From Eledone cirrhosa (taxonomy: Eukaryota), in NCBI GenBank assembly GCA_964016885.1, contig OZ024741.1, positions 276,706,001 to 276,770,000 on the forward strand: a DNA stretch of 64,000 bases, read 5' to 3'. The notes below the pieces were generated by a model. The model saw only the letters and a list, made by a program, of their open reading frames with translations. It searched no databases and was not told where the DNA came from. Positions 2,106 through 42,494 of this stretch are shown here, piece by piece. How positions within the stretch are numbered: the stretch's first letter is position 1; each line of letters begins with the position of its first letter. The position numbers and the translations under genes were made by a program.

Positions 2106-2689
2106 ATTATATTGTATTGTTTATTATACATTAAATTTTGCTCTGGTACTTACATAGAGCACTCTTCACTCCTATGACTTTTTCAATTTTCAACGGAAAC
2201 TTCAATACTTATATATATATATATATATATATAAAGATTTACATATACACAAACTAGACAATGTCATATATATATATATATATATATATGTTTTTGGCAA
2301 CCATTCACGATGTGGCTCAATGATGAATTAATTAATTAAATAATCAGAGCAATATTATGTTTATAAACATTTTTTCTTCTAACTTTAATTTTATACCTAA
2401 TTGTGTATGGTTGACGATATATTTAATCGATGTCCACGTGCTATTGAAATGCTCGGTAAATGTTCTATAGCTGTTGATCGCGAATAGATGGGTGTAGTTT
2501 ATTTATCTATTATTTCTTCATAGGTGCCTTTTAATCTTATAGCCTGGTTTAATTGTTTTTTTTTGTGTGGTTGATTATGCTGATTGGGAGAGGAAATGGT
2601 GTATATATCTTATCAAATGATTCTATGGACATAATTTATAGTATATATATATATAGAAACAGAGTTCTGGACAAATTTTGTGACCACAT

Positions 2690-4673
2690 AGCTACCTTCC
2701 CATACCATGAACTACCGCAACCTAAACCCAAACCCAACACAAGTCGAAGGGAATGGGAGATTATCCATGAACTAAAAAACAATCCGGACATTGTAATTAA
2801 GGAAGCGGACAAGGGAAGTACTGTTGTCATTATGGAGGCTGAAAAATATAAAAATTCTATGTTCTCTCTCTTACAAAATGCTAATTATTATGAAAGAGTA
2901 AAAAACTACCAGCAATCAAAAATAATGACCAAATTAAACACACTGATTTATCGATACCAGGTAGACCTAACTAAAAAGGAACGCGATTATTTAACAAATT
3001 TTGAATACAAAACCAGCAACCTTTACGGACTTCCGAAGATCCACAAATGTAAAATAATCAACGATGCCTGTAAACAATCCACCTCAGCCTGCGTGAACAC
3101 ACAATACCCCACATACCTTAAATTAAGACCAATTGTAGCGGGCCCACAATGTGAAACACACAGATTGAGCAACTTTATAGACATACTACTGAAACCAATA
3201 CTGAAACACATACCAAGCCTTATAAGAGACGATCTGGACCTCTTAAACCACCTCCCCAAACATGTCAACAACGACACTATTATTGTGTCTTTCGATGTAG
3301 TGAATCTCTACACAACGATCCCACACCAATACGGACTAGAAGCAATAGGATTCTGGCTAGAGAAATATCCCAATGAGATACCTGACAGAATAGAAAAAAG
3401 CTTCATCACCGAGGGATTAAAATTCATCCTACAGAACAACTTTTTTGATTTCGATGGCAATACTTACAAGCAAACATCGGGGACTGCGATGGGCACAAAA
3501 GCCGCTCCAACTTATGCCAACTTAGTCATGGCATACTTAGAAATCCAGATATATGAACAGTCCAAATCAAAATACGGATTGAACTTCCACAAATATTTAT
3601 CAGAGAATTGGAAACGCTACTTGGATGATTGCCTCATTCTTTGGTCCCACACACTCGACCAACTGAAGGATTTCAAAAACTTAATAAACGGCATCAATAA
3701 CCACATACAATTCACAATGGAATACAGCCAAGATCAACTCCCATTTCTGGACATCTTAATCACAAAAAAAGACACAAATATCGAAACTGACATACACTAC
3801 AAACCAACAGATTCCAAACAATATCTGCTATTCACCTCCAACCATCCAAAGCACACGAAGACGAACATTCCTTTTAACCTAGCAAGAAGAATTTGCACAA
3901 TTGTCTCCATTATGAAACGCGAAATAAAAGACTTCAAGAATTAAAGGAAATTCTACTTGAGAGAGAGTACCCACTATTACTAATAAATAATGGAATAGAA
4001 AGGGCTAAAGCAATAGGCATTGATGAATTACGGAAACAGAAACAAATTCAAGGTACGTCCAATATTCTATCATATATCTCAACACACAACCCAAGAAATG
4101 CGGAAGCTTACAACACTATTCACAATAACATCCCACTACTAAAACAAAACCCAAGAATGAAAAAAGCCCTTGAAACACACAAAATAATCAAAAGCAAAAG
4201 ACAACCAAAATCACTGAAAACATTACTCACCAATGCCAAATTACCTACCACAAACCCACAACCAAGTATCAAAAAATGTGGTCGCTCTAATTGTGGAACC
4301 TGCACTCACCTCATTGAAGGCAACACATATACATTTAAATCAGGACAAAATTTTACTGTAAAAAATCACTTCACTTGCTCATCAAAAAATCTAATTTATG
4401 CCATTAAATGTAAAGGATGCAATGAAGATTATATAGGACAAACTAAACTCACACTCAGAAACAGAATGACAGTTCATCGCCAACAATTACGAGATCCAAC
4501 CACGAGACAGATACCACTAAGTGCACATCTAGACATTTGCGCAAGTAATAAGACACCCAAAATTCCAAGTCTTCCCATTTTACCTTTGCGCTAACAATAC
4601 AACAGAACAAATGCGAATAAATAAGGAAAATATGTTTATTCAAAAATATAGACCAACATTAAATAAGGTTTAA
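2690..4673 (+). pseudogene. PLE1 reverse transcriptase/GIY-YIG endonuclease ORF with two frameshifts (~3910, ~4560)
   Basis: RT motifs ADKG, YGLPKIHK, LRPIV, SFDVVNLYTTIP, QTSGTAMG, RYLDD, LPFLD, HYKPT. Linker CGRSNCGTC (Neptune-like Cys motif). Endonuclease NLIYAIKC..C...YIGQT...RNRMTVH. A third frame ends ...ENMFIQKYRPTLNKV* at 4673. The called start at 2553 lies in non-element DNA. Confidence 0.9.
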
Positions 4674-10975: not shown

Positions 10976-11040
10976 CTACCTACGTCTTTGTCTACATGTA
11001 TGTCACGCTCAATAATGAATCTTACTTTTTTTGTGTTTTG

Positions 11041-11331
11041 TTTGTCTGACTGTCTGTCTGCCTATCTGTCTGCCTATCTGTCCGTCTGACTGTCTGTCTG
11101 CCTATCTGTCCGTCTGACTGTCTGTCTGCCTATCTGTCCGTCTGACTGTCTGTCTGCCTATCTGTCTGCCTATCTGTCTGCCTATCTGTCCGTCTGACTG
11201 TCTGTCTGCCTATCTGTCTGACTGTCTGTCTGCCTATCTGTCCGTCTGACTGTTTGTCTGACTGTTTGTCTGCCTATCTGTCTGCCTATCTGTCCGTCTG
11301 ACTGTTTGTCTGTCTGTCTGTCTGTGTGTCT
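11041..11331 (+). repeat. Compound (TCTG)/(CCTA)/(TCCG) tetranucleotide leader directly upstream of Tx1-like copy A1
   Basis: Units tgtctgcctatctgtccgtctgac; its 3' parts recur at 16952-17008 and 22637-22805. Confidence 0.95.
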
Positions 11332-11506
11332 GAGGATAGTAGACGTGTGTCATATCGCTCTGTGATTTGGATTTTTACCTGCTAATTTTGTGAGTGGATT
11401 TTTTTGAATTATTTTGTATAATTAACTGTAACCCCTAGTCTGGGACTCTAGACGTCGGGTAAATATATTTTCACCCCTTTTGGGGTGAAAAATAAATATT
11501 TGAGAA

Positions 11507-13267
11507 ATGTTCATCGATATCGTTGATAACGATATCGTCGAAAACGATATCGCCATATTGGAAGCGAACGCCACGCCGACCAAAAAAACAAGCGGGAAAG
11601 AGGGAACAACAGTTCAAACTGTTGAACAACCCCTCCTCTCCAATGAAAAAAAGAATTTCAATTCAAATGAAAAAATTAATTTTCAAGAAAAAAATAACAC
11701 CACAAATAAGGAAACCAACAACATTACAACAACAAACAAAGACAAAATTTCTTTTGCCCAAACACTCAAGAGAGCCACGGAGTACAAAGCCATTGACATC
11801 ACGAACGCCAAGGAAAATTTGCTAGAGGCTAGAAAATACGTATCTTTTGGGGAGGATGGTTCTTTTACGATCAACTCCCCAGAAGAAGTGCGTGAACAGA
11901 TTTACAAGAATACCGTAAGCTTCAGAACCATAACCAACGAAACGAGAAAGCCAGCGCAATTGACCGAAAGTCAAATCGAGCTGGTTCTGAAAGAAATTAA
12001 AAATGACATACTCTTTATTCAAAGAGGAAAGCTGTATGCCAGCATTATGGTCCGAATGAAGGACGAAATGCTGGCTCAGAAATATTCGGTGGCACCTATA
12101 GTGTCACCACAATACACCTTCTTCCCCACATATAAAGGAAGAAGAACACAAAGGATAAGAATGTGGAGCCCTACGCCAGAAATTAACATCTGGTCCGTCC
12201 TAACAGGATTTACCGACCTAGATAAGGACATACTAATTTCAGCAGGGGAGTCCACCAGTGGACTGTTCGGGGGGAAAAGTCTGGAGGTTCTCTTACAGAT
12301 GACACCTGAGAGAATCTCCGGAATACCCGACCGAGTGCTACTGGATGGGCGAACCTACATAAATATCACAGTGGAAGGCAGGAGACCCTCATGTTACCAC
12401 TGCGCTGGCAGAGGTCACCTGAGGACGGCCTGCCCTCTACTAACAACTAAAAAACCACTGCTACAAACACCACAACAACAACAAAAACAACCAGCACCAC
12501 CATCACAAAAACAACAAAATACACTACCATCTCCACCAGAACAACAAAAACCAACAACACCACCACCACCACCACAACAACAACAACAACAACATCAACA
12601 ACAGCTCAAGAAAACAACCCAAAACACGGTCCCACCCAGCCCCACCCCACAGAACACAAATACAAAAACAGTTCATACACAACCCGGAGATATACCCCTC
12701 CCCTCCAATACGGAAGAGGAGCTCATATCGTCGGAAGACGAGGGGGCTCCCTTCCAAAAAGTGAAAAGAAAAAAACGTACACACACCACAACAACAAAAA
12801 TAACCCCACCTGACAACACAACACAGACAATAAAACGCAAACTCACTCAACAACAACAAGCAAAAACAAACACAACAACACAAAAACTCTACACATACAT
12901 AAACAAAAACAATGAAAACCTAACTTTAAAAATAGAAACCAACCCTTCGATACAAACCGAAGGGCCGAATTTCGTAACGGCATTGGGGCTCCCTAACCTG
13001 AAAATGGTGAAAATCCCACTTGACATTTTTAAAACTTTAAAAGACATGTACCCTGAGGACGTGGGCCCACCCTGCACCAGGCCACTCAACCGCGTCCTCC
13101 TGAAAGGTTTTCCCCTCCCCTCCTCAAACACCCACACAACTCCAAAGATCCCAACCCCTCCACACACCAATACCCCCACACCACCACAAACCACCACCCC
13201 ACCCATCAACCCCGCCACCAGCCCCATGGAAACTGAGCGACCCGAACCCCGGGACGCAGAGAGGTAA
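11507..13267 (+). CDS. ORF1p of A1 (586 aa), gag-like nucleic-acid-binding protein
   Basis: CCHC zinc knuckle CYHCAGRGHLRTAC, Q/P/T-rich linker, conserved C-terminal block; lies upstream of ORF2. Confidence 0.9.
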   Translation: MFIDIVDNDIVENDIAILEANATPTKKTSGKEGTTVQTVEQPLLSNEKKNFNSNEKINFQEKNNTTNKETNNITTTNKDKISFAQTLKRATEYKAIDITNAKENLLEARKYVSFGEDGSFTINSPEEVREQIYKNTVSFRTITNETRKPAQLTESQIELVLKEIKNDILFIQRGKLYASIMVRMKDEMLAQKYSVAPIVSPQYTFFPTYKGRRTQRIRMWSPTPEINIWSVLTGFTDLDKDILISAGESTSGLFGGKSLEVLLQMTPERISGIPDRVLLDGRTYINITVEGRRPSCYHCAGRGHLRTACPLLTTKKPLLQTPQQQQKQPAPPSQKQQNTLPSPPEQQKPTTPPPPPQQQQQQHQQQLKKTTQNTVPPSPTPQNTNTKTVHTQPGDIPLPSNTEEELISSEDEGAPFQKVKRKKRTHTTTTKITPPDNTTQTIKRKLTQQQQAKTNTTTQKLYTYINKNNENLTLKIETNPSIQTEGPNFVTALGLPNLKMVKIPLDIFKTLKDMYPEDVGPPCTRPLNRVLLKGFPLPSSNTHTTPKIPTPPHTNTPTPPQTTTPPINPATSPMETERPEPRDAER

Positions 13268-13269
13268 GT
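13264..13269 (+). promoter_or_regulatory. Consensus 5' splice donor AG|GTAAGT overlapping the ORF1 stop codon
   Basis: GTAAGT also at 18949, 24746, 29755, 38802 and 46208; ATAAGT in decayed copy C (33669). Confidence 0.6.
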
Positions 13270-13290
13270 GCCTCTTTCTTTGCCACCAAC

Positions 13291-16200
13291 ATGGCTGTCT
13301 TAAGAGTGGGTTGTCTAAATGCGCGTGGCCTGGGCTCACCTTGGAAGCAAGCTAAACTTCTAAGTGACCTCAGGTCACAATGTGTAAATGTGATGGTTAT
13401 TTGCGAGGCCCGGATCAGCAGCATGCGACAGCTAACCCCCACCTTTGATGACTTTGAGATGCACGCATCTCTCTGTCAGCCCGGAGGTGGGGGTGGGGTT
13501 GTCGTTCTGCTGCAAAAACATCTGGGTCTCGCTACACAGACGGTACACTTGGACCCGGAGGGTCGACTCGTGGTTCTGGACCTTGGCAATGGCGAAGGCG
13601 AAGCTTTTAGGCTTGTCGCCGTATACGCCCCTTTTGGGGCAATGCGGTCGGACTTCTTCCATCGTCTGGAGACTTTTCTAGGGACGTCCCGCTCCTTGCT
13701 TTTAGTGGGGGACTGGAATGGTATCCTAGATGCACGTTGGGACTATGTAGGGGCATGTCCCGATAGAGGGGGGTGTAACAGCCTTAAGGGGTTAATCGGC
13801 CGATTCGACCTGGCCGATAGATACCGACTAGATTTTCCGACTGTACCAACCTGGACCTGGTCAAATAACAGTGGTCAATCTAGATCGTACCTAGATAGGT
13901 TCTTAGTTAGAATTAAGGATAGGGACTTTTTAAGTTGTCCAGAAATGCTCATGGTGGGCTATTCAGACCACAAGTTAGTGACCTGCGTAGTCCACCTTGA
14001 TAGAACGCATAGGCAGGGGCCCGGTTACTGGAAGCTCAACTTGTCCTTACCGGCAAGTAGAGCTTACAGGGACCGGATTAGAACCTTAGTTAAGGAGCAG
14101 TTGACGGGCGCCATCGTCAACAACAGGTGGTGGGGCTCTCTAAAAAGAGAGATTAGAGTAGTTTCAATAGGAGTTAGTAAGGAGTTAGCCTCAGATAGAA
14201 ATAGGAAGGAAAGGGAGTTGGTAGTTAATGTTGAAGAGGCAATGAGAAGCGGCAACGTGGCCAGAGTGCAAGCGTCGAGAACGGTCTTGAACCAGTTCTT
14301 CGACGCGAAACACGAAGGCTGCGTTGTCCGAAGCAAAATACGTGCTCTGGGAAACGAGGGGACCAAAGCTGTTAGCTGGGCTAGCGTGACAGAAGCGAAA
14401 AGTGGGATTAAATCCACTATCCGGTCTTTGCGAGACCAGGATGGACGGCTGATCCTTGAACCTAAGCAAATGTGCGAGGCCTTTCAAAGGCACTTTGCCG
14501 AATTGTTCGGGAGGGGCGGGGAGCCGGTTGGAGATGTGGATTTCGGTCCATACCTCGACGGCCTGCCGCGTCTTTCGGACAGGGAGGCGAGGTCCTGCGA
14601 CGGGCCGATCTCAGCGGCTGAAATAGGGGACGTGCTGAGCCTATGCGGCAAACGCAAATCTCCAGGACTCGATGGTCTGCCCTACGAACTATATATTAAT
14701 ATGCCGGACTTGTTCCCCGATCTCCTCGAGGCGGTCTACTGCAACTGGCAACAGAACGGGAGAATTCCCTGTTCTGTGACCAAGGGCGTAGTCTCGCTAG
14801 TGAGGAAGGACGAGAACAAGGGGGATGACATTAGTAATTTTAGGCCCATAACTCTGCTAAATGCAGAGTTAAAGATTTTGGCGAAGGTGTTAGCGAAGAG
14901 GTTGGCGCTTGTCGTGGGGGGCCTGGTGGGAGATGCGCAGACATGCGCTATCCCGTCCAGGTCCATCCACGACAACCTCCACCTCATGCGATACATCATA
15001 GGGAGGGTTGGGAACGAACCCGGCTTTGGTGGGGCCCTGATAAATTTAGATCAGTCTAAAGCGTTCGATAGGGTGGACCATGGTTACCTGGATGCGGTGC
15101 TAGCGGCGGCTGGGTTCGGACCCGTTTTCAGGGGCTGGATCACTGCCATGCACAGCAGCCGCATCTGCTCTAGAGTCAAGGTGAACGGCTACCTTTCGGA
15201 GCCGTTCGAAATCACCCGCTCCATCCGACAGGGGTGCCCTCTCTCCTCCCTTCTGTATGTGTTGACTCTCGAGCCATTACTGCGGAAGTTGGAGTTGTTG
15301 CAGGGCATCCCTTTGGAACCGGGATTGCGCAAAGCGGTGTCGGCCTACGCCGATGACGTAACAGTAATGGTGTCGACCGCCTCGGAAATCGAGGCAATCG
15401 GCACCTTACTAGAGGAGTACGAAAGGTTGACAGGGGCTAAGCTGAACCGGGACAAGTCAGTCGCTTTGCAACTCGGCGAGTGGAGGGGCAAAGCGATGTC
15501 GTGCGACGGTATCGTCGGACGGTGGACGGAGGGCCCGGTGAAGTTGCTTGGGGTCTGGTTCGGACCGGACCTCCAGGTGGAGAAAAACTGGGGTGAGGTG
15601 ACGAATAGGGTGTTTGCACTGACCCAGAAGTGGGCCGAGTGCAAACTATCCCTAAAAGGTCGGGCGGAGGTGGCGAACGCTTACATAGCGTCCGTCATCT
15701 ATTACCGCTTGACTGTCGTGCCTTGCCCGGGTGAGATCCTCGCCAAAATGGAGCGCGCCCTCTTTTATTTCCTTTGGAAGAAGAGGTCTCCTCTAGTGAG
15801 GAGATCCATCTGCTGTCAACACCCTTTGAAAGGAGGGCTGGGGATGCCGTGGCTAAAAATGCGTAAACACGCATTGAGGCTAAGGCACCTCCACGTATTC
15901 CTCACCGGTCAACCGGTGTGGGCCCCGTTTGTGAGGCGAGCCTTCCCGAGGCTCGTCTCGCTCACCGAGCTGCAGTCCTGGGTGAAGCAAAGACCGAGAA
16001 AACTGGGCGACTGGCACACCGAGTGTGCCCAGGCGCTCACGGCTCTCTGGCAGGCGGACCCGGCTATCGACGGAGACTCCACCTCGTCATTCTATAGAGG
16101 GCTGGTGGTTAGCGGGTGCGACGACGCCCTCGGAGAAGCCCTAGGCATGGAGGAGGACGAACTGGCCAGTCTATTCGGTAGGACTTTCGGCCCGGGACCT

Positions 16201-16728
16201 ATGGACAACTTCCAGAAGTCCTTGGCCTGGCAGTGCTACCGAGGGGCTCTGCCCGTTCGGGATAAGCTCTACAGACACGGGCGCCCGGGTAGGGACCCCT
16301 CGAAAAAGATCTGTCCCAGATGCGTGCGCGACGAGGAAACCGTCGCGCACGCATTGGTGCACTGCCCGGGCATTGCCGATCTGTGGGGCTATGTCGAACG
16401 ACTGCTGTCACGGGTGGGACCAATTAGGTTGACCACCGAGTCCATTGTAACGATCAAGCCGCCTCCCCCCTTCAAAAATGAAGGAGAGGCGGTCTTCCTC
16501 TGTGTAATAGTCATGGTAAAAGAGGCTATATGGTGGACGCGTCTGAAAGGGCTGAGGTCGGACACCTTTCTCTCCGGCCAACAACTGGTCCTTTTCTTCC
16601 GATACCATTTCGGAAGAAGGATCAGGATGGAGAGAGAGGTGCTCCACTCCAGCCAGTTTTATGAAAGGTGGGTGAAAGTTGCGAGAATGGCCCGTGTGAA
16701 TGGGCCTTCTCTCTACCTCAGCCTGTAG
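13291..16728 (+). CDS. ORF2p of A1 (1145 aa): APE endonuclease + reverse transcriptase + C-terminal CCHC-type motif
   Basis: APE motifs LNARGL, VYAP, GDWN, TW, YLDRF, SDH. RT motifs KSPGLDG, FRPITLLN, LDQSKAFDRV, RQGCPLS, YADD. C-terminal CPRC..ETVAHALVHC. GYWKLN and GGLG motifs are typical of L1/Tx1. Confidence 0.95.
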   Translation: MAVLRVGCLNARGLGSPWKQAKLLSDLRSQCVNVMVICEARISSMRQLTPTFDDFEMHASLCQPGGGGGVVVLLQKHLGLATQTVHLDPEGRLVVLDLGNGEGEAFRLVAVYAPFGAMRSDFFHRLETFLGTSRSLLLVGDWNGILDARWDYVGACPDRGGCNSLKGLIGRFDLADRYRLDFPTVPTWTWSNNSGQSRSYLDRFLVRIKDRDFLSCPEMLMVGYSDHKLVTCVVHLDRTHRQGPGYWKLNLSLPASRAYRDRIRTLVKEQLTGAIVNNRWWGSLKREIRVVSIGVSKELASDRNRKERELVVNVEEAMRSGNVARVQASRTVLNQFFDAKHEGCVVRSKIRALGNEGTKAVSWASVTEAKSGIKSTIRSLRDQDGRLILEPKQMCEAFQRHFAELFGRGGEPVGDVDFGPYLDGLPRLSDREARSCDGPISAAEIGDVLSLCGKRKSPGLDGLPYELYINMPDLFPDLLEAVYCNWQQNGRIPCSVTKGVVSLVRKDENKGDDISNFRPITLLNAELKILAKVLAKRLALVVGGLVGDAQTCAIPSRSIHDNLHLMRYIIGRVGNEPGFGGALINLDQSKAFDRVDHGYLDAVLAAAGFGPVFRGWITAMHSSRICSRVKVNGYLSEPFEITRSIRQGCPLSSLLYVLTLEPLLRKLELLQGIPLEPGLRKAVSAYADDVTVMVSTASEIEAIGTLLEEYERLTGAKLNRDKSVALQLGEWRGKAMSCDGIVGRWTEGPVKLLGVWFGPDLQVEKNWGEVTNRVFALTQKWAECKLSLKGRAEVANAYIASVIYYRLTVVPCPGEILAKMERALFYFLWKKRSPLVRRSICCQHPLKGGLGMPWLKMRKHALRLRHLHVFLTGQPVWAPFVRRAFPRLVSLTELQSWVKQRPRKLGDWHTECAQALTALWQADPAIDGDSTSSFYRGLVVSGCDDALGEALGMEEDELASLFGRTFGPGPMDNFQKSLAWQCYRGALPVRDKLYRHGRPGRDPSKKICPRCVRDEETVAHALVHCPGIADLWGYVERLLSRVGPIRLTTESIVTIKPPPPFKNEGEAVFLCVIVMVKEAIWWTRLKGLRSDTFLSGQQLVLFFRYHFGRRIRMEREVLHSSQFYERWVKVARMARVNGPSLYLSL

Positions 16729-16729
16729 G
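16705..16729 (+). promoter_or_regulatory. Candidate 3' splice acceptor at the end of ORF2 (ccttctctctacctcAG|cctgtAG|g)
   Basis: Pyrimidine tract plus two AGs; equivalent sequence at the ORF2 end of all copies except D, where it is deleted. Confidence 0.5.
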
Positions 16730-16978
16730 TGGAACAGAAAGGAGGGAGCACCCTCTCTTTGTGCTCCCGTGGAGAAGGGTCGCACACTTTTTTCGGGGGT
16801 GTGTGTGACCCCAAAACGATCCCTCCCTATTGAGGACCTTCTTGTTATTATTTTGTTTGTTATATTTTTCTTACTCGATTTTTATGTAAACTCCCCCCAC
16901 CCATGTACATGTCCCTTTCTTTTGTGCCCTAGTGGCAAATAAACAGAAATTTATCTGTCTGCCTATCTGTCCGTCTGA

Positions 16979-17008
<30 letters not shown>

Positions 17009-17009
<1 letters not shown>

Positions 17010-20000
17010 AGTATAGTAGACGTGTGTCATATCGCTCTGTGATTTGGATTTTTACCTGCTATTTTTGTGAGTGGATTTTTTTGAATTCTTTTGTATAATT
17101 AACTGTAACCCCTAGTCTGGGACTCTAGACGTCGGGTAAATATATTTTCACCCCTTTTGGGGTGAAAAATAAATATTTCAGAAATGTTTATCGATATCGT
17201 TGATAACGATATCGTCGAAAACGATATCGCCATATTGGAAGCGAACGCCACGCCGACCAAAAAAACAAGCGGGAAAGAGGGAACAACAGTTCAAACTGTT
17301 GAACAACCCCTCCTCTCCAATGAAAAAAAGAATTTCAATTCAAATGAAAAAATTAATTTTCAAGAAAAAAATAACACCACAAATAAGGAAACCAACAACA
17401 TTACAACAACAAACAAAGACAAAATTTCTTTTGCCCAAACACTCAGGAGAGCCACGGAATACAAAGCCATTGACATCACGAACGCCAAGGAAAATTTGCT
17501 AGAGGCTAGAAAATACGTATCTTTTGGGGAGGATGGTTCTTTTACGATCAACTCCCCAGAAGAAGTACGTCAACAGATTTACAAGAATACCGTAAGCTAC
17601 AGAACCATAACCAACGAAACGAGAAAGCCAGCGCAATTGACCGAAAGTCAAATCGAGCTGGTTCTTAAAGAAATTAAAAATGACATACTCTTTATTCAAA
17701 GAGGAAAGCTGTATGCCAGCATTATGGTCCGAATGAAGGACGAAATGCTGGCTCAGAAATATTCGGTGGCACCTATAGTGTCACCACAATACACCTTCTT
17801 CCCCACATATAAAGGAAGAAGAACACAAAGGATAAGAATGTGGAGCCCTACGCCAGAAATTAACATCTGGTCCGTCCTAACAGGATTTACCGATCTAGAT
17901 AAGGACATACTAATTTCAGCAGGGGAGTCCACCAGTGGACTGTTCGGCGGGAAAAGTCTGGAGGTTCTCTTACAGATGACACCTGAGAGAATCTCCGGAA
18001 TACCCGACCGAGTGCTACTGGATGGGCGAACCTACATAAATATCACAGTGGAAGGCAGGAGACCCTCATGTTACCACTGCGCTGGCAGAGGTCACCTGAG
18101 GACGGCCTGCCCTCTACTAACAACTAAAAAACCACTGCTACAAACACCACAACAACAACAAAAACAACCAGCACCACCATCACAAAAACAACAAAATACA
18201 CTACCATCTCCACCAGAACAACAAAAACCAACAACACCACCACCACCACCACCACCACAACAACAACAACAACAACAACATCAACAACAGCTCAAGAAAA
18301 CAACCCAAAACACGGTCCCACCCAGCCCCACCCACAGAACACAAATACAAAAACAGTTCATACACAACCCGGAGATATACCCCTCCCCTCCAATACGGAA
18401 GAGGAGCTCATATCGTCGGAAGACGAGGGGGCTCCCTTCCAAAAAGTGAAAAGAAAAAAACGTACACACACCACAACAACAAAAATAACCCCACCTGACA
18501 ACATAACACAGACAATAAAACGCAAACTCACTCAACAACAGCAAGCAAAAACAAACACAACAACACAAAAACTCTACACATACATAAACAAAAACAATGA
18601 AAACCTAACTTTAAAAATAGAAACCAACCCTTCGATACAAACCGAAGGGCCGAATTTCGTAACGGCAATGGGGCTCCCTAACCTGAAAATGGTGAAAATC
18701 CCACTTGACATTTTCAAAACTTTAAAAGACATGTACCCTGAGGACGTGGGCCCACCCTGCACCAGGCCACTCAACCGCGTCCTCCTGAAATGTTTTCCCC
18801 TCCCCTCCTCAAACACCCACACAACTCCAAAGATCCCAACCCCTCCACACACTAATACCCCCACACCACCACAAACCACCACCCCACCCATCAACCCCGC
18901 CACCAGCCCCATGGAAACTGAGCGACCCGAACCCCGGGACGCAGAGAGGTAAGTGCCTCTTTCTTTGCCACCAACATGGCTGTCTTAAGAGTAGGTTGTC
19001 TAAATGCGCGTGGCCTGGGCTCACCTTGGAAGCAAGCTAAACTTCTAAGTGACCTCAGGTCACAATGTGTAAATGTGATGGTTATTTGCGAGGCCCGGAT
19101 CAGCAGCATGCGACAGCTAACCCCCACCTTTGATGACTTTGAGATGCACGCATCTCTCTGTCAGCCTGGAGGTGGGGGTGGGGTTGTCGTTCTGCTGCAA
19201 AAACATCTGGGTCTCGCTACACAGACGGTACACTTGGACCCGGAGGGTCGACTCGTGGTTCTGGACCTTGGCAATGGCGAAGGCGAAGCTTTTAGGCTTG
19301 TCGCCGTATACGCCCCTTTTGGGGCAATGCGGTCGGACTTCTTCCATCGTCTGGAGACTTTTCTAGGGACGTCCCGCTCCTTGCTTTTAGTGGGGGACTG
19401 GAATGGTATCCTAGATGCACGTTGGGACTATGTAGGGGCATGTCCCGATAGAGGGGGGTGTAACAGCCTTAAGGGGTTAATCGGCCGATTCGACCTGGCC
19501 GATAGATACCGACTAGATTTTCCGACTGTACCAACCTGGACCTGGTCAAATAACAGTGGTCAATCTAGATCGTACCTAGATAGGTTCTTAGTTAGAATTA
19601 AGGATAGGGACATTTTAAGTTGTCCAGAAATGCTCATGGTGGGCTATTCAGACCACAAGTTAGTGACCTGCGTAGTCCACCTTGATAGAACGCATAGGCA
19701 GGGGCCCGGTTACTGGAAGCTCAACTTGTCCTTACCGGCAAGTAGAGCTTACAGGGACCGGATTAGAACCTTAGTTAAGGAGCAGTTGACGGGCGCCATC
19801 GTCAACAACAGGTGGTGGGGCTCTCTAAAAAGAGAGATTAGAGTAGTTTCAATAGGAGTTAGTAAGGAGTTAGCCTCAGATAGAAATAGGAAGGAAAGGG
19901 AGTTGGTAGTTAATGTTGAAGAGGCAATGAGAAGCGACAACGTGGCCAGAGTGCAAGCGTCGAGAACGGTCTTGAACCAGTTCTTCGACGCGAAACACGA

Positions 20001-22637
20001 AGGCTGCGTTGTCCGAAGCAAAATACGTGCTCTGGGAAACGAGGGGACCAAAGCTGTTAGCTGGGCCCGCGTGACAGAAGCGAAAAGTGGAATTAAATCC
20101 ACTATCCGGTCTTTGCGAGACCAGGATGGACGGCTGATCCTTGAACCTAAGCAAATGTGCGAGGCCTTTCAAAGGCACTTTGCCCAATTGTTCGGGAGGG
20201 GCGGGGAGCCGGTTGGAGATGTGGATTTCGGTCCATACCTCGACGGCCTGCCGCGTCTTTCGGACAGGGAGGCGAGGTCCTGCGACGGGCCGATCTCAGC
20301 TGCTGAAATAGGGGACGTGCTGAGCCTATGCGGCAAACGCAAATCTCCAGGACTCGATGGTCTGCCCTACGAACTATATATTAATATGCCGGACTTGTTC
20401 CCCGATCTCCTCGAGGCGGTCTACTGCAACTGGCAACAGAACGGGAGAATTCCCTGTTCTGTGACCAAGGGCGTAGTCTCGCTAGTGAGGAAGGACGAGA
20501 ACAAGGGGGATGACATTAGTAATTTTAGGCCCATAACTCTGCTAAATGCAGAGTTAAAGATTTTGGCGAAGGTGTTAGCGAAGAGGTTGGCGCTTGTCGT
20601 GGGGGGCCTGGTGGGAGATGCGCAGACATGCGCTATCCCGTCCAGGTCCATCCACGACAACCTCCACCTCATGCGATACATCATAGAGAGGGTTGGGAAG
20701 GAACCCGGCTTTGGTGGGGCCCTGATAAATTTAGATCAGTCTAAAGCGTTCGATAGAGTGGACCATGGTTACCTGGATGCGGTGCTAGCGGCGGCTGAGT
20801 TCGGACCCGTTTTCAGGGGCTGGATCACTGCCATGCACAGCAGCCGCATCTGCTCTAGAGTCAAGGTGAACGGCTACCTTTCGGAGCCGTTCGAAATCAC
20901 CCGCTCCATCCGACAGGGGTGCCCTCTCTCCTCCCTTCTGTATGTGTTGACTCTCGAGCCATTACTGCGGAAGTTGGAGTTGTTGCAGGGCATCCCTTTG
21001 GAACCGGGATTGCGCAAAGCGGTGTCGGCCTACGCCGATGACGTAACAGTAATGGTGTCGACCGCCTTGTAAATCGAGGCAATCGGCACCTTACTAGAGG
21101 AGTACGAAAGGTTGACAGGGGCTAAGCTGAACCGGGACAAGTCAGTCGCTTTGCAACTCGGCGAGTGGAGGGGCAAAGCGATGTCGTGCGACGGTATCGT
21201 CGGACGGTGGACGGAGGGCCCGGTGAAGTTGCTTGGGGTCTGGTTCGGACCGGACCTCCAGGTGGAGAAAAACTGGGGTGAGGTGACGAATAGGGTGTTT
21301 GCACTGACCCAGAAGTGGGCCGAGTGCAAACTATCCCTAAAAGGTCGGGCGGAGGTGGCGAACGCTTACATAGCGTCCGTCATCTATTACCGCTTGACTG
21401 TCGTGCCTTGCCCGGGTGAGATCCTCGCCAAAATGGAGCGCGCCCTCTTTTATTTCCTTTGGAAGAAGAGGTCTCCTCTAGTGAGGAGATCCATCTGCTG
21501 TCAACACCCTTTGAAAGGAGGGCTGGGGATGCCGTGGCTAAAAATGCGTAAACACGCATTGAGGCTAAGGCACCTCCACGTATTCCTCACCGGTCAACCG
21601 GTGTGGGCCCCGTTTGTGAGGCGAGCCTTCCCGAGGCTCGTCTCGCTCACCGAGCTGCAGTCCTGGGTGAAGCAAAGACCGAGAAAACTGGGCGACTGGC
21701 ACACCGGGTGTGCCCAGGCGCTCACGGCTCTCTGGCAGGCGGACCCGGCTATCGACGGAGACTCCACCTCGTCATTCTATAGAGGGCTGGTGGTTAGCGG
21801 GTGCGACGACGCCCTCGGAGAAGCCCTAGGCATGGAGGAGGACGAACTGGCCAGTCTATTCGGTAGGACTTTCGGCCCGGGACCTATGGACAACTTCCAG
21901 AAGTCCTTGGCCTGGCAGTGCTACCGAGGGGCTCTGCCCGTTCGGGATAAGCTCTACAGACACGGGCGCCCGGGTAGGGACCCCTCGAAAAAGATCTGTC
22001 CCAGATGCGTGCGCGACGAGGAAACCGTCGCGCACGCATTGGTGCACTGCCCGGGCGTTGCCGATCTGTGGGGCTATGTCGAACAACTGCTGTCACGGGT
22101 GGGACCAATTAGGTTGACCACCGAGTCCATTGTAACGATCAAGCCGCCTCCCCCCTTCAAAAATGAAGGAGAGGCGGTCTTCCTCTGTGTAATAGCCATG
22201 GTAAAAGAGGCTATATGGTGGACGCGTCTGAAAGGGCTGAGGTCGGACACCTTTCTCTCCGGCCAACAACTGGTCCTTTTCTTCCGATACCATTTCGGAA
22301 GAAGGATCAGGATGGAGAGAGAGGTGCTCCACCCCAGCCAGTTTTATGAAAGGTGGGTGAAAGTTGCGAGAATGGCCCGTGTGAATGGGCCTTCTCTCTA
22401 CCTCAGCCTGTAGGTGGAACAGAAAGGAGGGAGCACCCTCTCTTTGTGCCCCCGTGGAGAAGGGTCGCAGACTTTTTTCGGGGGTGTGTGTGACCCCAAA
22501 ACGATCCCTCCCTATTGAGGACCTTCTTGTTATTATTTTGTTTGTTATATTTTTCTTACTCGATTTTTATGTAAACTCCCCCCACCCATGTACATGTCCC
22601 TTTCTTTTGTGCCCTAGTGGCAAATAAACAGAAATTT
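17009..22637 (+). mobile_element. Full-length Tx1-like copy A2 (near-identical to A1), defective
   Basis: ORF1 17184-18952 with a 1-nt deletion near 18330; ORF2 18976-22413 with an in-frame TAA at 21070-21072. Confidence 0.95.
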
Positions 22638-22775
22638 GTCTGCCTATCTGTCTGCCTATCTGTCCGTCTGACTGTCTGTCTGCCTATCTGTCTGACTGTC
22701 TGTCTGCCTATCTGTCCGTCTGACTGTTTGTCTGACTGTTTGTCTGCCTATCTGTCTGCCTATCTGTCCGTCTGA

Positions 22776-22805
<30 letters not shown>

Positions 22806-22806
<1 letters not shown>

Positions 22807-25800
22807 AGGATAGTAGACGTGTGTCATATCGCTCTGTGATTTGGATTTTTACCTGCTATTTTTGTGAGTGGATTTTTTTGAATTCTTTTGTATAATTAAC
22901 TGTAACCCCTAGTCTGGGACTCTAGACGTCGGGTAAATATATTTTCACCCCTTTTGGGGTGAAAAATAAATATTTCAGAAATGTTTATCGATATCGTTGA
23001 TAACGATATCGTCGAAAACGATATCGCCATATTGGAAGCGAACGCCACGCCGACCAAAAAAACAAGCGGGAAAGAGGGAACAACAGTTCAAACTGTTGAA
23101 CAACCCCTCCTCTCCAATGAAAAAAAGAATTTCAATTCAAATGAAAAAATTAATTTTCAAGAAAAAAATAACACCACAAATAAGGAAACCAACAACATTA
23201 CAACAACAAACAAAGACAAAATTTCTTTTGCCCAAACACTCAGGAGAGCCACGGAATACAAAGCCATTGACATCACGAACGCCAAGGAAAATTTGCTAGA
23301 GGCTAGAAAATACGTATCTTTTGGGGAGGATGGTTCTTTTACGATCAACTCCCCAGAAGAAGTACGTCAACAGATTTACAAGAATACCGTAAGCTACAGA
23401 ACCATAACCAACGAAACGAGAAAGCCAGCGCAATTGACCGAAAGTCAAATCGAGCTGGTTCTTAAAGAAATTAAAAATGACATACTCTTTATTCAAAGAG
23501 GAAAGCTGTATGCCAGCATTATGGTCCGAATGAAGGACGAAATGCTGGCTCAGAAATATTCGGTGGCACCTATAGTGTCACCACAATACACCTTCTTCCC
23601 CACATATAAAGGAAGAAGAACACAAAGGATAAGAATGTGGAGCCCTACGCCAGAAATTAACATCTGGTCCGTCCTAACAGGATTTACCGACCTAGATAAG
23701 GACATACTAATTTCAGCAGGGGAGTCCACCAGTGGACTGTTCGGCGGGAAAAGTCTGGAGGTTCTCTTACAGATGACACCTGAGAGAATCTCCGGAATAC
23801 CCGACCGAGTGCTACTGGATGGGCGAACCTACATAAATATCACAGTGGAAGGCAGGAGACCCTCATGTTACCACTGCGCTGGCAGAGGTCACCTGAGGAC
23901 GGCCTGCCCTCTACTAACAACTAAAAAACCACTGCTACAAACACCACAACAACAACAAAAACAACCAGCACCACCATCACAAAAACAACAAAATACACTA
24001 CCATCTCCACCAGAACAACAAAAACCAACAACACCACCACCACCACCGCCACAACAACAACAACAACAACAACAACATCAACAACAGCTCAAGAAAACAA
24101 CCCAAAACACGGTCCCACCCAGCCCCACCCACAGAACACAAATACAAAAACAGTTCATACACAACCCGGAGATATACCCCTCCCCTCCAATACGGAAGAG
24201 GAGCTCATATCGTCGGAAGACGAGGGGGCTCCCTTCCAAAAAGTGAAAAGAAAAAAACGTACACACACCACAACAACAAAAATAACCCCACCTGACAACA
24301 TAACACAGACAATAAAACGCAAACTCACTCAACAACAGCAAGCAAAAACAAACACAACAACACAAAAACTCTACACATACATAAACAAAAACAATGAAAA
24401 CCTAACTTTAAAAATAGAAACCAACCCTTCGATACAAACCGAAGGGCCGAATTTCGTAACGGCAATGGGGCTCCCTAACCTGAAAATGGTGAAAATCCCA
24501 CTTGACATTTTCAAAACTTTAAAAGACATGTACCCTGTGGACGTGGGCCCACCCTGCACCAGGCCACTCAACCGCGTCCTCCTGAAATGTTTTCCCCTCC
24601 CCTCCTCAAACACCCACACAACTCCAAAGATCCCAACCCCTCCACACACTAATACCCCCACACCACCACAAACCACCACCCCACCCATCAACCCCGCCAC
24701 CAGCCCCATGGAAACTGAGCGACCCGAACCCCGGGACGCAGAGAGGTAAGTGCCTCTTTCTTTGCCACCAACATGGCTGTCTTAAGAGTAGGTTGTCTAA
24801 ATGCGCGTGGCCTGGGCTCACCTTGGAAGCAAGCTAAACTTCTAAGTGACCTCAGGTCACAATGTGTAAATGTGATGGTTATTTGCGAGGCCCGGATCAG
24901 CAGCATGCGACAGCTAACCCCCACCTTTGATGACTTTGAGATGCACGCATCTCTCTGTCAGCCTGGAGGTGGGGGTGGGGTTGTCGTTCTGCTGCAAAAA
25001 CATCTGGGTCTCGCTACACAGACGGTACACTTGGACCCGGAGGGTCGACTCGTGGTTCTGGACCTTGGCAATGGCGAAGGCGAAGCTTTTAGGCTTGTCG
25101 CCGTATACGCCCCTTTTGGGGCAATGCGGTCGGACTTCTTCCATCGTCTGGAGACTTTTCTAGGGACGTCCCGCTCCTTGCTTTTAGTGGGGGACTGGAA
25201 TGGTATCCTAGATGCACGTTGGGACTATGTAGGGGCATGTCCCGATAGAGGGGGGTGTAACAGCCTTAAGGGGTTAATCGGCCGATTCGACCTGGCCGAT
25301 AGATACCGACTAGATTTTCCGACTGTACCAACCTGGACCTGGTCAAATAACAGTGGTCAATCTAGATCGTACCTAGATAGGTTCTTAGTTAGAATTAAGG
25401 ATAGGGACTTTTTAAGTTGTCCAGAAATGCTCATGGTGGGCTATTCAGACCACAAGTTAGTGACCTGCGTAGTCCACCTTGATAGAACGCATAGGCAGGG
25501 GCCCGGTTACTGGAAGCTCAACTTGTCCTTACCGGCAAGTAGAGCTTACAGGGACCGGATTAGAACCTTAGTTAAGGAGCAGTTGACGGGCGCCATCGTC
25601 AACAACAGGTGGTGGGGCTCTCTAAAAAGAGAGATTAGAGTAGTTTCAATAGGAGTTAGTAAGGAGTTAGCCTCAGATAGAAATAGGAAGGAAAGGGAGT
25701 TGGTAGTTAATGTTGAAGAGGCAATGAGAAGCGACAACGTGGCCAGAGTGCAAGCGTCGAGAACGGTCTTGAACCAGTTCTTCGACGCGAAACACGAAGG

Positions 25801-28433
25801 CTGCGTTGTCCGAAGCAAAATACGTGCTCTGGGAAACGAGGGGACCAAAGCTGTTAGCTGGGCCCGCGTGACAGAAGCGAAAAGTGGGATTAAATCCACT
25901 ATCCGGTCTTTGCGAGACCAGGATGGACGGCTGATCCTTGAACCTAAGCAAATGTGCGAGGCCTTTCAAAGGCACTTTGCCCAATTGTTCGGGAGGGGCG
26001 GGGAGCCGGTTGGAGATGTGGATTTCGGTCCATACCTCGACGGCCTGCCGCATCTTTCGGACAGGGAGGCGAGGTCCTGCGACGGGCCGATCTCAGCTGC
26101 TGAAATAGGGGACGTGCTGAGCCTATGCGGCAAACGCAAATCTCCAGGACTCGATGGTCTGCCCTACGAACTATATATTAATATGCCGGACTTGTTCCCC
26201 GATCTCCTCGAGGCGGTCTACTGCAACTGGCAACAGAACGGGAGAATTCCCTGTTCTGTGACCAAGGGCGTAGTCTCGCTAGTGAGGAAGGACGAGAACA
26301 AGGGGGATGACATTAGTAATTTTAGGCCCATAACTCTGCTAAATGCAGAGTTAAAGATTTTGGCGAAGGTGTTAGCGAAGAGGTTGGCGCTTGTCGTGGG
26401 GGGCCTGGTGGGAGATGCGCAGACATGCGCTATCCCGTCCAGGTCCATCCACGACAACCTCCACCTCATGCGATACATCATAGAGAGGGTTGGGAACGAA
26501 CCCGGCTTTGGTGGGGCCCTGATAAATTTAGATCAGTCTAAAGCGTTCGATAGGGTGGACCATGGTTACCTGGATGCGGTGCTAGCGGCGGCTGGGTTCG
26601 GACCCGTTTTCAGGGGCTGGATCACTGCCATGCACAGCAGCCGCATCTGCTCTAGAATCAAGGTGAACGGCTACCTTTCGGAGCCGTTCGAAATCACCCG
26701 CTCCATCCGACAGGGGTGCCCTCTCTCCTCCCTTCTGTATGTATTGACTCTCGAGCCATTACTGCGGAAGTTGGAGTTGTTGCAGGGCATCCCTTTGGAA
26801 CCGGGATTGCGCAAAGCGGTGTCGGCCTACGCCGATGACGTAACAGTAATGGTGTCGACCGCCTCGGAAATCGAGGCAATCGGCACCTTACTAGAGGAGT
26901 ACGAAAGGTTGACAGGGGCTAAGCTGAACCGGGACAAGTCAGTCGCTTTGCAACTCGGCGAGTGGAGGGGCAAAGCGATGTCGTGCGACGGTATCGTCGG
27001 ACGGTGGACGGAGGGCCCGGTGAAGTTGCTTGGGGTCTGGTTCGGACCGGACCTCCAGGTGGAGAAAAACTGGGGTGAGGTGACGAATAGGGTGTTTGCA
27101 CTGACCCAGAAGTGGGCCGAGTGCAAACTATCCCTAAAAGGTCGGGCGGAGGTGGCGAACGCTTACATAGCGTCCGTCATCTATTACCGCTTGACTGTCG
27201 TGCCTTGCCCGGGTGAGATCCTCGCCAAAATGGAGCGCGCCCTCTTTTATTTCCTTTGGAAGAAGAGGTCTCCTCTAGTGAGGAGATCCATCTGCTGTCA
27301 ACACCCTTTGAAAGGAGGGCTGGGGATGCCGTGGCTAAAAATGCGTAAACACGCATTGAGGCTAAGGCACCTCCACGTATTCCTCACCGGTCAACCGGTG
27401 TGGGCCCCGTTTGTGAGGCGAGCCTTCCCGAGGCTCGTCTCGCTCACCGAGCTGCAGTCCTGGGTGAAGCAAAGACCGAGAAAACTGGGCGACTGGCACA
27501 CCGAGTGTGCCCAGGCGCTCACGGCTCTCTGGCAGGCGGACCCGGCTATCGACGGAGACTCCACCTCGTCATTCTATAGAGGGCTGGTGGTTAGCGGATG
27601 CGACGACGCCCTCGGAGAAGCCCTAGGCATGGAGGAGGACGAACTGGCCAGTCTATTCGGTAGGACTTTCGGCCCGGGACCTATGGACAACTTCCAGAAG
27701 TCCTTGGCCTGGCAGTGCTACCGAGGGTTCTGCCCGTTCGGGATAAGCTCTACAGACACGGGCGCCCGGGTAGGGACCCCTCGAAAAAGATCTGTCCCAG
27801 ATGCGTGCGCGACGAGGAAACCGTCGCGCACGCATTGGTGCACTGCCCAGGCGTTGCCGATCTGTGGGGCTATGTTGAACAACTGCTGTCACGGGTGGGA
27901 CCAATTAGGTTGACCACCGAGTCCATTGTAACGATCAAGCCGCCTCCCCCCTTCAAAAATGAAGGAGAGGCGGTCTTCCTCTGTGTAATAGCCATGGTAA
28001 AAGAGGCTATATGGTGGACGCGTCTGAAAGGGCTGAGGTCGGACACCTTTCTCTCCGGCCAGCAACTGGTCCTTTTCTTCCGATACCATTTCGGAAGAAG
28101 GATCAGGATGGAGAGAGAGGTGCTCCACTCCAGCCAGTTTTATGAAAGGTGGGTGAAAGTTGCGAGAATGGCCCGTGTGAATGGGCCTTGTCTCTACCTC
28201 AGCCTGTAGGTGGAACAGAAAGGAGGGAGCACCCTCTCTTTGTGCTCCCGTGGAGAAGGGTCGCACACTTTTTTCGGGGGTGTGTGTGACCCCAAAACGA
28301 TCCCTCCCTATTGAGGATCTTCTTGTTATTATTTTGTTTGTTATATTTTTCTTACTCGATTTTTATGTAAACTCCCCCCACCCATGTACATGTCCCTTTC
28401 TTTTGTGCCCTAGTGGCAAATAAACAGAAATTT
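22806..28433 (+). mobile_element. Full-length Tx1-like copy A3, defective
   Basis: ORF1 22981-24749 with the same frameshift as A2 (~24128); ORF2 24773-28209 with a frameshift near 27726. Confidence 0.95.
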
Positions 28434-28442
28434 GTCTATCTA

Positions 28443-40400: not shown

Positions 40401-42390
40401 AAGGCTGGCGCTTGTCGTCGTGAACCTGGTAGGCGAAGCCCAAACGTGTGCAATCCCGACCAGGTCCATACACGACAACCTCCACCTCATGCGATACATC
40501 ATAGAGAGGGTAGGGTGTAAACCTGGCTTCGGTGGGGCTCTGATCAATTTAGATCAGTCTAAGGCATTTGATAGGGTCGACCATCAATACTTGGAAGCAG
40601 TTCTCAAGGCGGCCGGCTTCGGTCCAGTCTTCAGAGGCTGGATAGCTGCCATGCACACCAGCATCTGCTCGGCACTCAAGGTGAATAGCTACCTATCAGA
40701 GCCATTCCAAATCATGCGTTCCATCCGTCAGGGATGCCCTCTCTCCTTCATTCTGTATGTACTGACTCTCGAGCCGTTACTGCAGAAGTTGGAGCTGTTG
40801 CAGGGTATCCCGATCGAACAAGGACTGCGGAAAGCAGCGTCGGCCTATGCCGACGACATAACCGTAATGGTGTCGAAAACCTCGGAAATCAGGATAATTG
40901 GCAACCTAATACAGGAATACGAAACGTTGACTGGAGCAAAACTAAACCCAAACAAGTCTGTCGGTTTGCAACTCGGCACATGGAGAGGCAAACCCATGCC
41001 TTCCGACAGTGTCGTTGGACGCTGGACGGAAGGACCGGTGAAATTGCTCTGGGTCTGGTTCTGTCCAGACTTCCAGGTGGACAAGAACTGGAACGAGGTC
41101 ACGGTGAAAGTATTTGCACTCACCCAGAAGTGGGCTGAGTGCAAACTCTCCTTGAAAGGTCGAGCGGAGGTGGCGAACACTTTTATAGCGTACGTCATCT
41201 ACTACCGCTTGACAGTCGTGCCTTGCCCCCGCGAATACCTTACCAAAATGGAACGCCTACTCTCCAAGTTCCTCTGGAAGAAACAGGCTCCATTGGTGAG
41301 GAGATACATCTGCTGTCAACACCCTTATAACGGAGGGCTGGGCATGCCGTGACTGATGATACGCAAACATGCGCTGAGGCTACACCATCTCCAGGTATTC
41401 CTGATCGGTGAACCGGTGTGGCTGTCGTTTGTGAGACAAGCTCTTCCACAACTCGTCTCACTAACAGAGCTGCAGTCCTGGGTCAAGCGAAGACCGAAAA
41501 TGGGTGCCTGGCACCTCGAGTGCCAACAGGCGCTCACACCCCTCTACCAATAGGTGATTAGTGGAAGATAAGTGCGACGACGTTCTCGGGGAAACTCTAG
41601 GCATCGAGGAGGACGAACTGACCAGTCTGTTCGGGAGGACTTTCCGTCCAGGGCCTATGGATAACTTCCAGAGGTCTCTGGCCTGGCAGTGCTGCCGAGG
41701 AGCTCTACCAGTTCGAGACAAAATCTACAGGCACGGATGCCCTAGCAGAGATCCTGCCAAAAGGATCTGTCCAAGATGCGAGCAGGACATCGAAACCGTT
41801 CTGCACACAATTGTTCAGTGCCCAGGGGTGACCGTCCTGTCGAATTGTGTCGAACAGCTGCTGTCACGTGTGGGACGCATCCAGTTGTCAGCCGAGTCCA
41901 TCGTGAGGATCACCCCGCCACCTTCATTTAAGAACGGCTTTCCTGTCTGGTGGCTATGGCGAAAGAGGTAATATGGTGGACGAGATTAAAAGGACTGAGG
42001 AAAACACCTTTCTCTCCGGACAACAACTTATCCCCTTCTTTAAGTACCACTTCAGAAGGAAGGTGAGAGTGGAGAAAGAGGTGCTACACCCCAGTAAATT
42101 CGCTGAAAGGTGGGTGAATGTGGCGAAAATGTAGGTTGAGGAAGATAAACAGAGGGAAGACAGGAACACCTACAAAACGTGTTCCTGGTGTTGAGGGTTG
42201 TTCTATCCACGGGGTGTAAAACAACCCTGCAGTAACGTTCCCTCCTACTGGCGATTTCAATTGTTATTTTATTATATATAGTTTATTGTTATTTATTAAT
42301 GTTAAAGTTATTTTTATGTAAAACCCCCACCGTTATGTCTTGTAATGTCCCATTTTTGTACGCCCCTGTGGCAAATAAAGAAAGATAACT
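37468..42390 (+). mobile_element. Tx1-like copy D, 5'-truncated in ORF1, decayed
   Basis: ORF1 remnant with CHKCGKTTHLKAFC to 38805; ORF2 remnant 38846-42134; ends GGCAAATAAAGAAAG, then TATC. Confidence 0.9.
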
Positions 42391-42407
42391 ATCTATCTAT
42401 CTATCTG

Positions 42408-42474: not shown

Positions 42475-42494
42475 ATCTGCCTATCTGTATGTCT

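What the first reader, a model, noticed from the sequence alone, without database searches (positions are those of the whole stretch)
11163..22805. Spacers between A copies are exact nested suffixes of the upstream compound leader
Seen: spacer A1/A2 (16952-17008, ~56 bp) matches 11276-11331 and spacer A2/A3 (22637-22805, ~168 bp) matches 11163-11331, variant units included. All three elements start after exactly six 4-nt GTCT units (one is GTGT in A1). So the 3' junction varies while the 5' junction is fixed. Inference: (a) the element carries its own target repeat as a 5' leader, so each insertion regenerates a landing pad; (b) very long target-site duplications with homology-guided 5' joining to the resident copy; or (c) recombination. 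A single unequal crossover does not explain two different spacer lengths.
Basis: partly seen in the sequence, partly recalled or inferred. Interest (0 to 1): 0.7.

Follow-up and report, generated by a model that had tools for sequence, protein, structure and literature searches.

The report
Retrotransposon stack with long target duplications
Three copies of a jumping gene that inserts into GTCT repeats are stacked head to tail, and the DNA between them is a copy of the local repeat just upstream, likely an unusually long and variable insertion scar made when each new copy pairs with the start of a copy already there.

Summary
Observation confirmed, with one mismatch per spacer. A1-A3 are 5.6-kb L1-like non-LTR retrotransposons of a family with 210 3' ends in the genome. 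The compound leader is not carried by the element: a 33-nt signature occurs three times in 3 Gb, all here, and other loci have their own leaders. The pattern recurs elsewhere with local sequence: spacers of 17, 73, 111, 122 and 1149 nt copy their own leader, and solo copies are flanked by duplications of 106 nt (with unique DNA) and 532 nt. So the spacers are most likely long, variable target-site duplications. The junction register equals the resident's in 7 of 9 informative array-leading copies against 0 of 7 copies without a resident downstream, which suggests that cDNA ending in a few repeat units anneals at the resident's start. A1 is an independent, younger insertion. A2 and A3 share a locus-only 5' 3 kb, so local copying also acted. 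Tandem insertion, RNA-borne target annealing and a 126-bp duplication are known (R1, R2, R9); this length range with a fixed join I did not find. Earlier scan notes describe related stacks in this genome.

The parts
11039..11331 (+). Locus-specific compound (GTCT)n-type microsatellite, the target tract ('leader'); ends in six 4-nt units, one of them GTGT
11332..16951 (+). A1, full-length non-LTR retrotransposon with both ORFs open; of another lineage than A2/A3 and likely the youngest of the three
11507..13267 (+). A1 ORF1, 586 aa, one CCHC knuckle (C-x2-C-x4-H-x4-C)
13291..16728 (+). A1 ORF2, 1145 aa: APE-type endonuclease, reverse transcriptase, zf-RVT
16952..17008 (+). Spacer 1, 57 nt, copy of 11275-11331 (1 mismatch); inferred target-site duplication of A1
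17009..22636 (+). A2, full-length, ORF1 frameshifted (421 aa) and ORF2 interrupted; 16 locus-private variants, likely the oldest
22637..22805 (+). Spacer 2, 169 nt, copy of 11163-11331 (1 mismatch); inferred target-site duplication or leader copied by the cDNA
22806..28432 (+). A3, full-length mosaic: 5' ~2.9 kb shares six substitutions and the ORF1 frameshift with A2 only; 3' part is of a common, younger-looking type; ORF2 frameshifted
25734..26052 (+). Approximate interval in A3 where ancestry shared with A2 ends (after element position 2921; next differences at 3075 and 3239)
28433..28441 (+). 9-nt repeat remnant between A3 and a 5'-truncated, ~78% identical relative

Best explanation
The spacers are copies of the local target repeat, likely long and variable target-site duplications made when an L1/Tx1-type retrotransposon inserts by target-primed reverse transcription, with the 5' join likely set by pairing of the new cDNA with the start of a resident copy. 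Steps: (1) the family's 3' ends are always joined to a GTCT-type word (shown); the first nick is inferred to fall at any such word, of which the leader offers about 29, so the 3' junction wanders. (2) The RNA likely begins a few repeat units upstream of the element, so the cDNA would end in (AGAC)n (inferred from extra upstream units). (3) That end would anneal to a top-strand GTCT run downstream of the nick; where a resident lies downstream, run plus element start is the best match, so the join lands in register at the resident's junction and everything between nick and join is duplicated (inferred). A1 fits this directly (57 nt). For A2/A3 the 169 nt is either A2's own duplication or leader copied by a cDNA that switched onto A2; A3's 5' half was copied locally from A2 (shared ancestry shown, route inferred).
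For: Leader is locus-only. Same pattern with other local sequences: whole-spacer suffix matches of 17, 73, 111 and 122 nt and 1149 nt with 0 mismatches. Copies with no full-length A start downstream carry duplications of 532, 106 (unique DNA included), 101, 59, 53, 49 and 18 nt. 86 of 86 copies counted are followed by TGTCT, TATCT, AGTCT, TGTAT or AGTAT, and the implied nick contexts of the 12 short-printed duplications all read C then [TA][GA]TCT. Register at the junction matches the resident past the pure run in 7 of 9 informative array-leading copies against 0 of 7 resolved copies without a resident downstream (my reading; Fisher p=0.003 on a table typed by hand). L051 copies a CTCT unit next to the start that is found only at its locus. 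A1 is closer to 54 of 63 copies elsewhere than to A2/A3, shares no exclusive variant with them and has 5 private variants against 16 in A2. Where new and resident copies differ early, the new copy has its own sequence from position 17, 18 or 54, so the pairing is short. Precedents: tandem R1 insertion into the duplication 5' of a resident, and transcripts carrying 6-27 nt of upstream target that give precise 5' joins (PMC2718515); same for R2 (PMC3774820).
Against: No RNA 5' end, nick site or empty allele was observed. 69 of 77 copies sorted as solo gave no resolvable duplication, mostly short or pure repeats, so the length distribution is not measured. 2 of 9 array-leading copies are one or two units out of register, and 2 of the 7 in register match only 85 of 133 and 80 of 211 nt without gaps. 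There is no genome-wide rule that the upstream copy is the younger one: 9 against 6 pairs, 1 tie, p=0.61. 9 of 25 adjacent pairs share locus-private variants, so conversion or unequal exchange could also have equalised junctions. A2/A3 does not fit the simple version: the downstream copy, not the upstream one, looks like the mosaic. A 5'-truncated copy (L101) sits directly upstream of a full-length resident without joining it internally. The GTGT unit must be a later mutation or RNA-borne; not resolved.
Confidence: 0.68

Rival explanations
1. DNA-level tandem duplication. A unit of leader suffix plus element was duplicated by microhomology (TGTCT after the element pairing with a TGTCT in the leader) or unequal exchange, and element bodies were later diversified by conversion from other loci.
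For: A2 and A3 share six substitutions and an ORF1 frameshift found at no other locus. In the C2:103.4 array a 33-nt spacer can be derived from a 57-nt one by repeat slippage between copies with shared private 3' variants. Identical or near-identical neighbours with identical spacers exist (L046/L047, L117/L118).
Against: A1 differs from A2/A3 along its whole length, lacks A2's private 3' variants and starts its spacer with TATCT, leaving 1 nt of microhomology. Solo copies have long flanking duplications with no second element. Many arrays mix lineages.
Confidence: 0.17
2. Ordinary long duplications, with the fixed junction due only to the repeat run: cDNA anneals at the end of the best GTCT run, which happens to abut the resident; homology to the resident's own sequence plays no part.
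For: The join lies within the run or the first 17-53 nt of the element, and the run before the resident is the longest pure run in this leader.
Against: Without a resident the unit number differs between the two flanks in 7 of 7 resolved cases, while arrays keep it in 7 of 9; L051 keeps a locus-only variant in the last unit.
Confidence: 0.1
3. The element carries the whole compound leader on its RNA, family-wide or by local read-through transcripts reinserting in cis.
For: Short RNA-borne repeat units are likely; A2 and A3 are local relatives.
Against: Leader absent from all other loci. A1 comes from another lineage yet has the local spacer. A spacer that travelled with the downstream copy's RNA should appear with its relatives elsewhere, and does not.
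Confidence: 0.03
4. Assembly artefact.
For: Read-level support could not be obtained.
Against: 26-43 differences between copies, different ORF breaks, different spacers, and the same pattern at other loci with other sequences.
Confidence: 0.02

Closest known systems
R1 tandem arrays in Drosophila rDNA (PMC2718515 and PMC5932611, passages read)
   Same: Head-to-tail arrays formed by repeated insertion at one target, copies separated by the target-site duplication, later expanded by unequal exchange; some R1 transcripts carry upstream target that anneals and gives precise 5' joins.
   Different: R1 spacers are 14 nt (33 nt in one array, some variants) with a rigid first nick and a flexible 5' end. 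Here the 3' junction moves along a microsatellite and the 5' junction is the fixed one, giving 5 to 1149 nt.
Kibi (TC)n and Koshi (TTC)n, Tx1-clade microsatellite-targeting LINEs (PMC4494074, passages read)
   Same: Two-ORF APE-type LINE restricted to a microsatellite; that paper also notes tandem SINEU-3 insertions sandwiching a duplication.
   Different: Target here is (GTCT)n-type; the passages read give no long or variable duplications; clade membership not tested by phylogeny.
R9 of Adineta vaga, 126-bp duplication (figure from PMC6895275 passage; original paper not held)
   Same: Non-LTR element with a duplication over 100 nt.
   Different: R9 is rDNA-specific with one stated length; here length varies over two orders of magnitude in an APE-type element, for which 10-20 nt is given as typical (PMC6895275).
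R2 5' joining by cDNA-target heteroduplex, and the 'jump first, cleave second strand after' model (PMC3774820, PMC6895275, passages read)
   Same: Target sequence on the RNA 5' end lets cDNA anneal and sets a uniform junction.
   Different: R2 anneals next to its nick; here the inferred annealing site lies up to hundreds of bases downstream and includes a resident element.
Chimeric L1 insertions in cultured cells, cDNA recombining with an endogenous L1 (recalled, Gilbert et al. 2005; paper not held, nothing read)
   Same: Would resemble the A2/A3 mosaic.
   Different: Recalled as rare events in cell assays, not a recurring germline array pattern.

Membership tests
APE-type non-LTR retrotransposon, L1 group | ORF2 with APE endonuclease, RT and C-terminal zinc motif | tested here: met
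   Pfam Exo_endo_phos, RVT_1, zf-RVT (the last below its curated cut-off); best solved-structure match human L1 ORF2p E 8e-50 against R2 3e-18
APE-type non-LTR retrotransposon, L1 group | ORF1 with nucleic-acid-binding motif, no LTRs | tested here: met
   586-aa ORF1 with one CCHC knuckle; no Pfam hit; self-comparison shows no long terminal repeat within a copy
Tx1 clade | RT phylogeny grouping with Tx1L, Kibi, Koshi, Keno | not testable with these tools
   No named Tx1 reference was returned; the label Tx1 rests on architecture, my recall and earlier scan notes
Tx1 clade | Target-sequence preference (over 20% of flanks in one kind of sequence, criterion in PMC4494074) | tested here: met
   86 of 86 copies counted are followed by a GTCT-type word; 83 of 86 have at least one GTCT/CTCT unit before the start
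Tandem arrays by multiple insertion (R1 type) | Copies separated by a duplication of the local target | tested here: met
Tandem arrays by multiple insertion (R1 type) | Neighbouring copies are independent insertions | tested here: inconclusive
   Met for A1 against A2; not for A2 against A3; 16 of 25 adjacent pairs share no locus-private variant
Tandem arrays by multiple insertion (R1 type) | Constant short duplication set by fixed cleavage stagger | tested here: not met
   Spacers of 5 to 1341 nt; solo duplications 18 to 532 nt
R1/R2-type RNA-guided 5' joining | Transcript carries upstream target sequence | not testable with these tools
   No RNA run listed; only indirect junction evidence

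The most novel reading that the evidence does not exclude
This LINE finishes insertion by a homology search: its cDNA end pairs with the start of a resident copy up to more than 1 kb from the nick, duplicating all DNA in between, and can switch template onto the neighbouring copy, which would build the arrays, keep most copies full-length and produce the family's block mosaicism. Second-strand position would then be set by annealing and not by endonuclease stagger in an APE-type LINE.
Probability: 0.35. Interest if true: 0.7.

Novelty: new variant of a known kind. Interest (0 to 1): 0.45.

Why it matters
How APE-type LINEs choose the second-strand break and prime the second strand is still open (PMC6895275 says it remains to be determined whether they use the branched intermediate). 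Compound microsatellites act here as built-in rulers, so each insertion records nick and join positions. A young family with intact copies, duplications from 5 to over 500 nt and a join pinned to a resident's start is a direct test case for 'anneal first, cut after'. It also shows a route by which insertions lengthen compound microsatellites and seed retrotransposon arrays. The principle of stacked insertions separated by the target duplication is known.

Tried and rejected
Family-wide leader: rejected. Strict rule that new copies go 5' of old: not supported genome-wide. Rescue of 5'-truncated cDNA by internal joining to the downstream resident: little power, since 37 of the 57 extra copies fetched were full-length, and L101 is a counter-example; L052 looked like such a case but its 5' block is also carried by other copies. 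A2 as 'resident 5' plus new 3'': disfavoured, likelihood 4e-6 against 0.012 for the reverse, assuming a donor with no private variants; A2's 3' variants were found nowhere else. Read support: tool skipped the repeat, no verdict; no RNA holder listed. Naming the clade: no named relatives. Two papers sought were not held. Dropped rows: of the 30 junction rows, L062 is a false motif hit, L076 and L152 precede other subfamilies, three array-leading spacers are pure GTCT and uninformative, and inner copies were not counted in the 7 of 9. In one search, A1 was mis-sorted as solo and removed, leaving 7; two of these (L073, L091) have an A copy upstream. Five extra stretches (L094-L098) were not analysed.
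Full report
What the elements are. The window holds three head-to-tail 5.62-kb copies at 11332, 17009 and 22806, followed by at least seven older relatives, 72-88% identical, each ending in a (TATC)n run. ORF2 of A1 (1145 aa) has endonuclease, RT and zf-RVT matches and its best solved relative is human L1 ORF2p; ORF1 has a CCHC knuckle. These are L1-group non-LTR retrotransposons; 'Tx1' is a label from architecture, recall and earlier notes, not from a tree. The genome is 3.0 Gb; I did not determine the organism.

The observation. Both spacers match the end of the leader with one mismatch each, at the GTGT unit. No other position in the leader fits as well (1 mismatch against 4 and 15). All three copies start after six units.

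The family. An exact 23-nt 5' pattern gives 66 places and a 3' pattern 210 (first 100 listed). I fetched all 63 non-window 5' places and the 57 listed 3' places that by my manual matching had no 5' hit; 37 of those 57 were full-length copies of related subfamilies. Every locus has its own repeat context. The window's leader 33-mer occurs three times in the genome, all here. So the element does not carry the compound leader.

The pattern is general. Of 9 array-leading copies with a non-pure spacer, 5 have a spacer that matches their own leader over its whole length without gaps (A1 57, L051 17, L074 73, L133 111, L117 122 nt), 2 match in register for 85 of 133 and 80 of 211 nt, and 2 are one or two units off. 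In the C3:358.7 array a 1149-nt spacer equals the leader suffix with no mismatch. Copies without a resident downstream also have long flanking duplications: 532 nt (1 mismatch), 106 nt including non-repeat DNA, 101, 59, 53, 49 and 18 nt; 69 of 77 copies sorted as solo could not be resolved. Long, variable duplications are therefore a property of insertion and do not need a neighbour.

Why the 5' junction is fixed. In the 7 resolved cases without a downstream resident, the repeat units before the element never equal those in the target copy; 6 have 2-16 extra nt upstream and one ends in mid-run. A CTCTGTCT variant just before the start occurs in 12 of 66 copies on 7 contigs, including near-identical copies on three contigs, and in L081 it is absent from the target copy. 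I infer that the RNA begins a few units upstream. With a resident downstream the register is kept in 7 of 9 (p=0.003 on a hand-entered table; small numbers, and local exchange could inflate it). L051 keeps a last-unit variant seen only at its locus. New copies show their own sequence from positions 17, 18 and 54, so any pairing with the resident is confined to the run and the first few dozen bases.

History of this locus. A1 is closer to 54 of 63 copies elsewhere than to A2 or A3, shares no exclusive variant with them, has both ORFs open and 5 private variants against 16 and 10. It is best read as a late, independent insertion with a 57-nt duplication; it must postdate the 169-nt copy, which needs the longer leader in place. 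A2 and A3 share six substitutions up to position 2921 and a one-base ORF1 deletion seen in 2 of the 105 aligned copies; a shared 47-mer occurs only in these two. Only 6 of their 26 differences lie in the first 3000 columns (p=0.002). A2's 3' part has 8 private variants and A3's has 3, so A2 looks old throughout and A3 looks like A2's 5' half joined to a younger 3' half. One-step routes exist (a truncated cDNA primed just downstream of A2 that switches onto A2 and copies into the leader, or A2's own 169-nt duplication followed by such an insertion at its end), but duplication plus later conversion fits as well. I cannot separate them.

Results against a simple model. Upstream copies are not reliably younger (9 against 6). 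Nine of 25 adjacent pairs share locus-private variants, and one nested pair (33 and 57 nt, C2:103.4) is explained by slippage. A truncated copy sits before a resident without internal joining. Recombination clearly reworks these arrays.

Literature. All papers were seen as passages returned by term search, none in full and no supplements: PMC2718515 (R1 tandems insert into the 14-bp duplication 5' of a resident; transcripts with 6-27 nt of target give precise joins), PMC5932611 (double insertion, 33-nt R1 spacers and some other lengths), PMC3774820 (R2 heteroduplex), PMC6895275 (126 bp in R9, 10-20 bp typical of APE LINEs, open question), PMC4494074 (Kibi, Koshi, tandem SINEU-3), PMC11702581 (12-18 bp typical, small tandem duplications at L1 sites), PMC13282606 (13 recently active L1-Tx1 families in an octopus genome, no junction analysis in the passages), PMC2861651 and PMC3287187 (little bearing). 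Eight searches, read as listings, showed no paper describing variable 50-1000 nt duplications pinned to a resident's start; Repbase reports and most subscription papers are outside the library. Earlier scan notes report GATA-targeting stacks and an RNA-borne landing-site copy in this genome; nothing was listed near this locus.

Verdict. Real, recurrent, and best explained as long variable target-site duplications with homology-set 5' joins (0.68). A new variant of a known kind; interest 0.45.

Noticed in passing
window 28442-50655: At least seven older relatives (72-88% identical to A1), mostly 5'-truncated, continue the stack, each followed by a (TATC)n run; one (46236-49673) has an open 1145-aa ORF2. 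GTCT- and TATC-preferring subfamilies share one array.
   Followed up: partly
window 42388-42494 and 43853-44143: Short 3'-end fragments (about 70-130 nt) of the relatives are stacked between larger copies, separated by a few TATC units.
   Followed up: no
L031-L093 (66 copies): The family is a block mosaic: the same variant blocks recur in many combinations across loci. Copies on different contigs differ by 0-2 bases (L091/L093; L046/L068/L086), so activity is very recent.
   Followed up: partly
L099-L155: About 80 of the first 100 listed 3' ends belong to full-length copies (43 matched by hand plus 37), high for a LINE; older subfamilies have slightly different first bases after the repeat run.
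   Followed up: partly
L051-L059 (G000:C3:358.73-358.78 Mb): Nine-copy array with a 1149-nt spacer and alternating copies carrying the same 78-nt deletion (L056, L058), a sign of two-unit duplication.
   Followed up: partly
window 52988-53342 and 54502-54856: 355-nt inverted repeat, 99% identical, about 1.2 kb apart; looks like a young non-autonomous DNA transposon.
   Followed up: no
window 2577-3944: 455-aa ORF with a weak RVT_1 match, unrelated to the array in the self-comparison.
   Followed up: no
window 60161-60543: 49-nt tandem repeat (7.8 copies) built partly from GACA units.
   Followed up: no
L105, L143: Very short 3' fragments (56 and 99 nt) inserted outside microsatellites; L143 has a short flanking duplication in unique DNA.
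   Followed up: no
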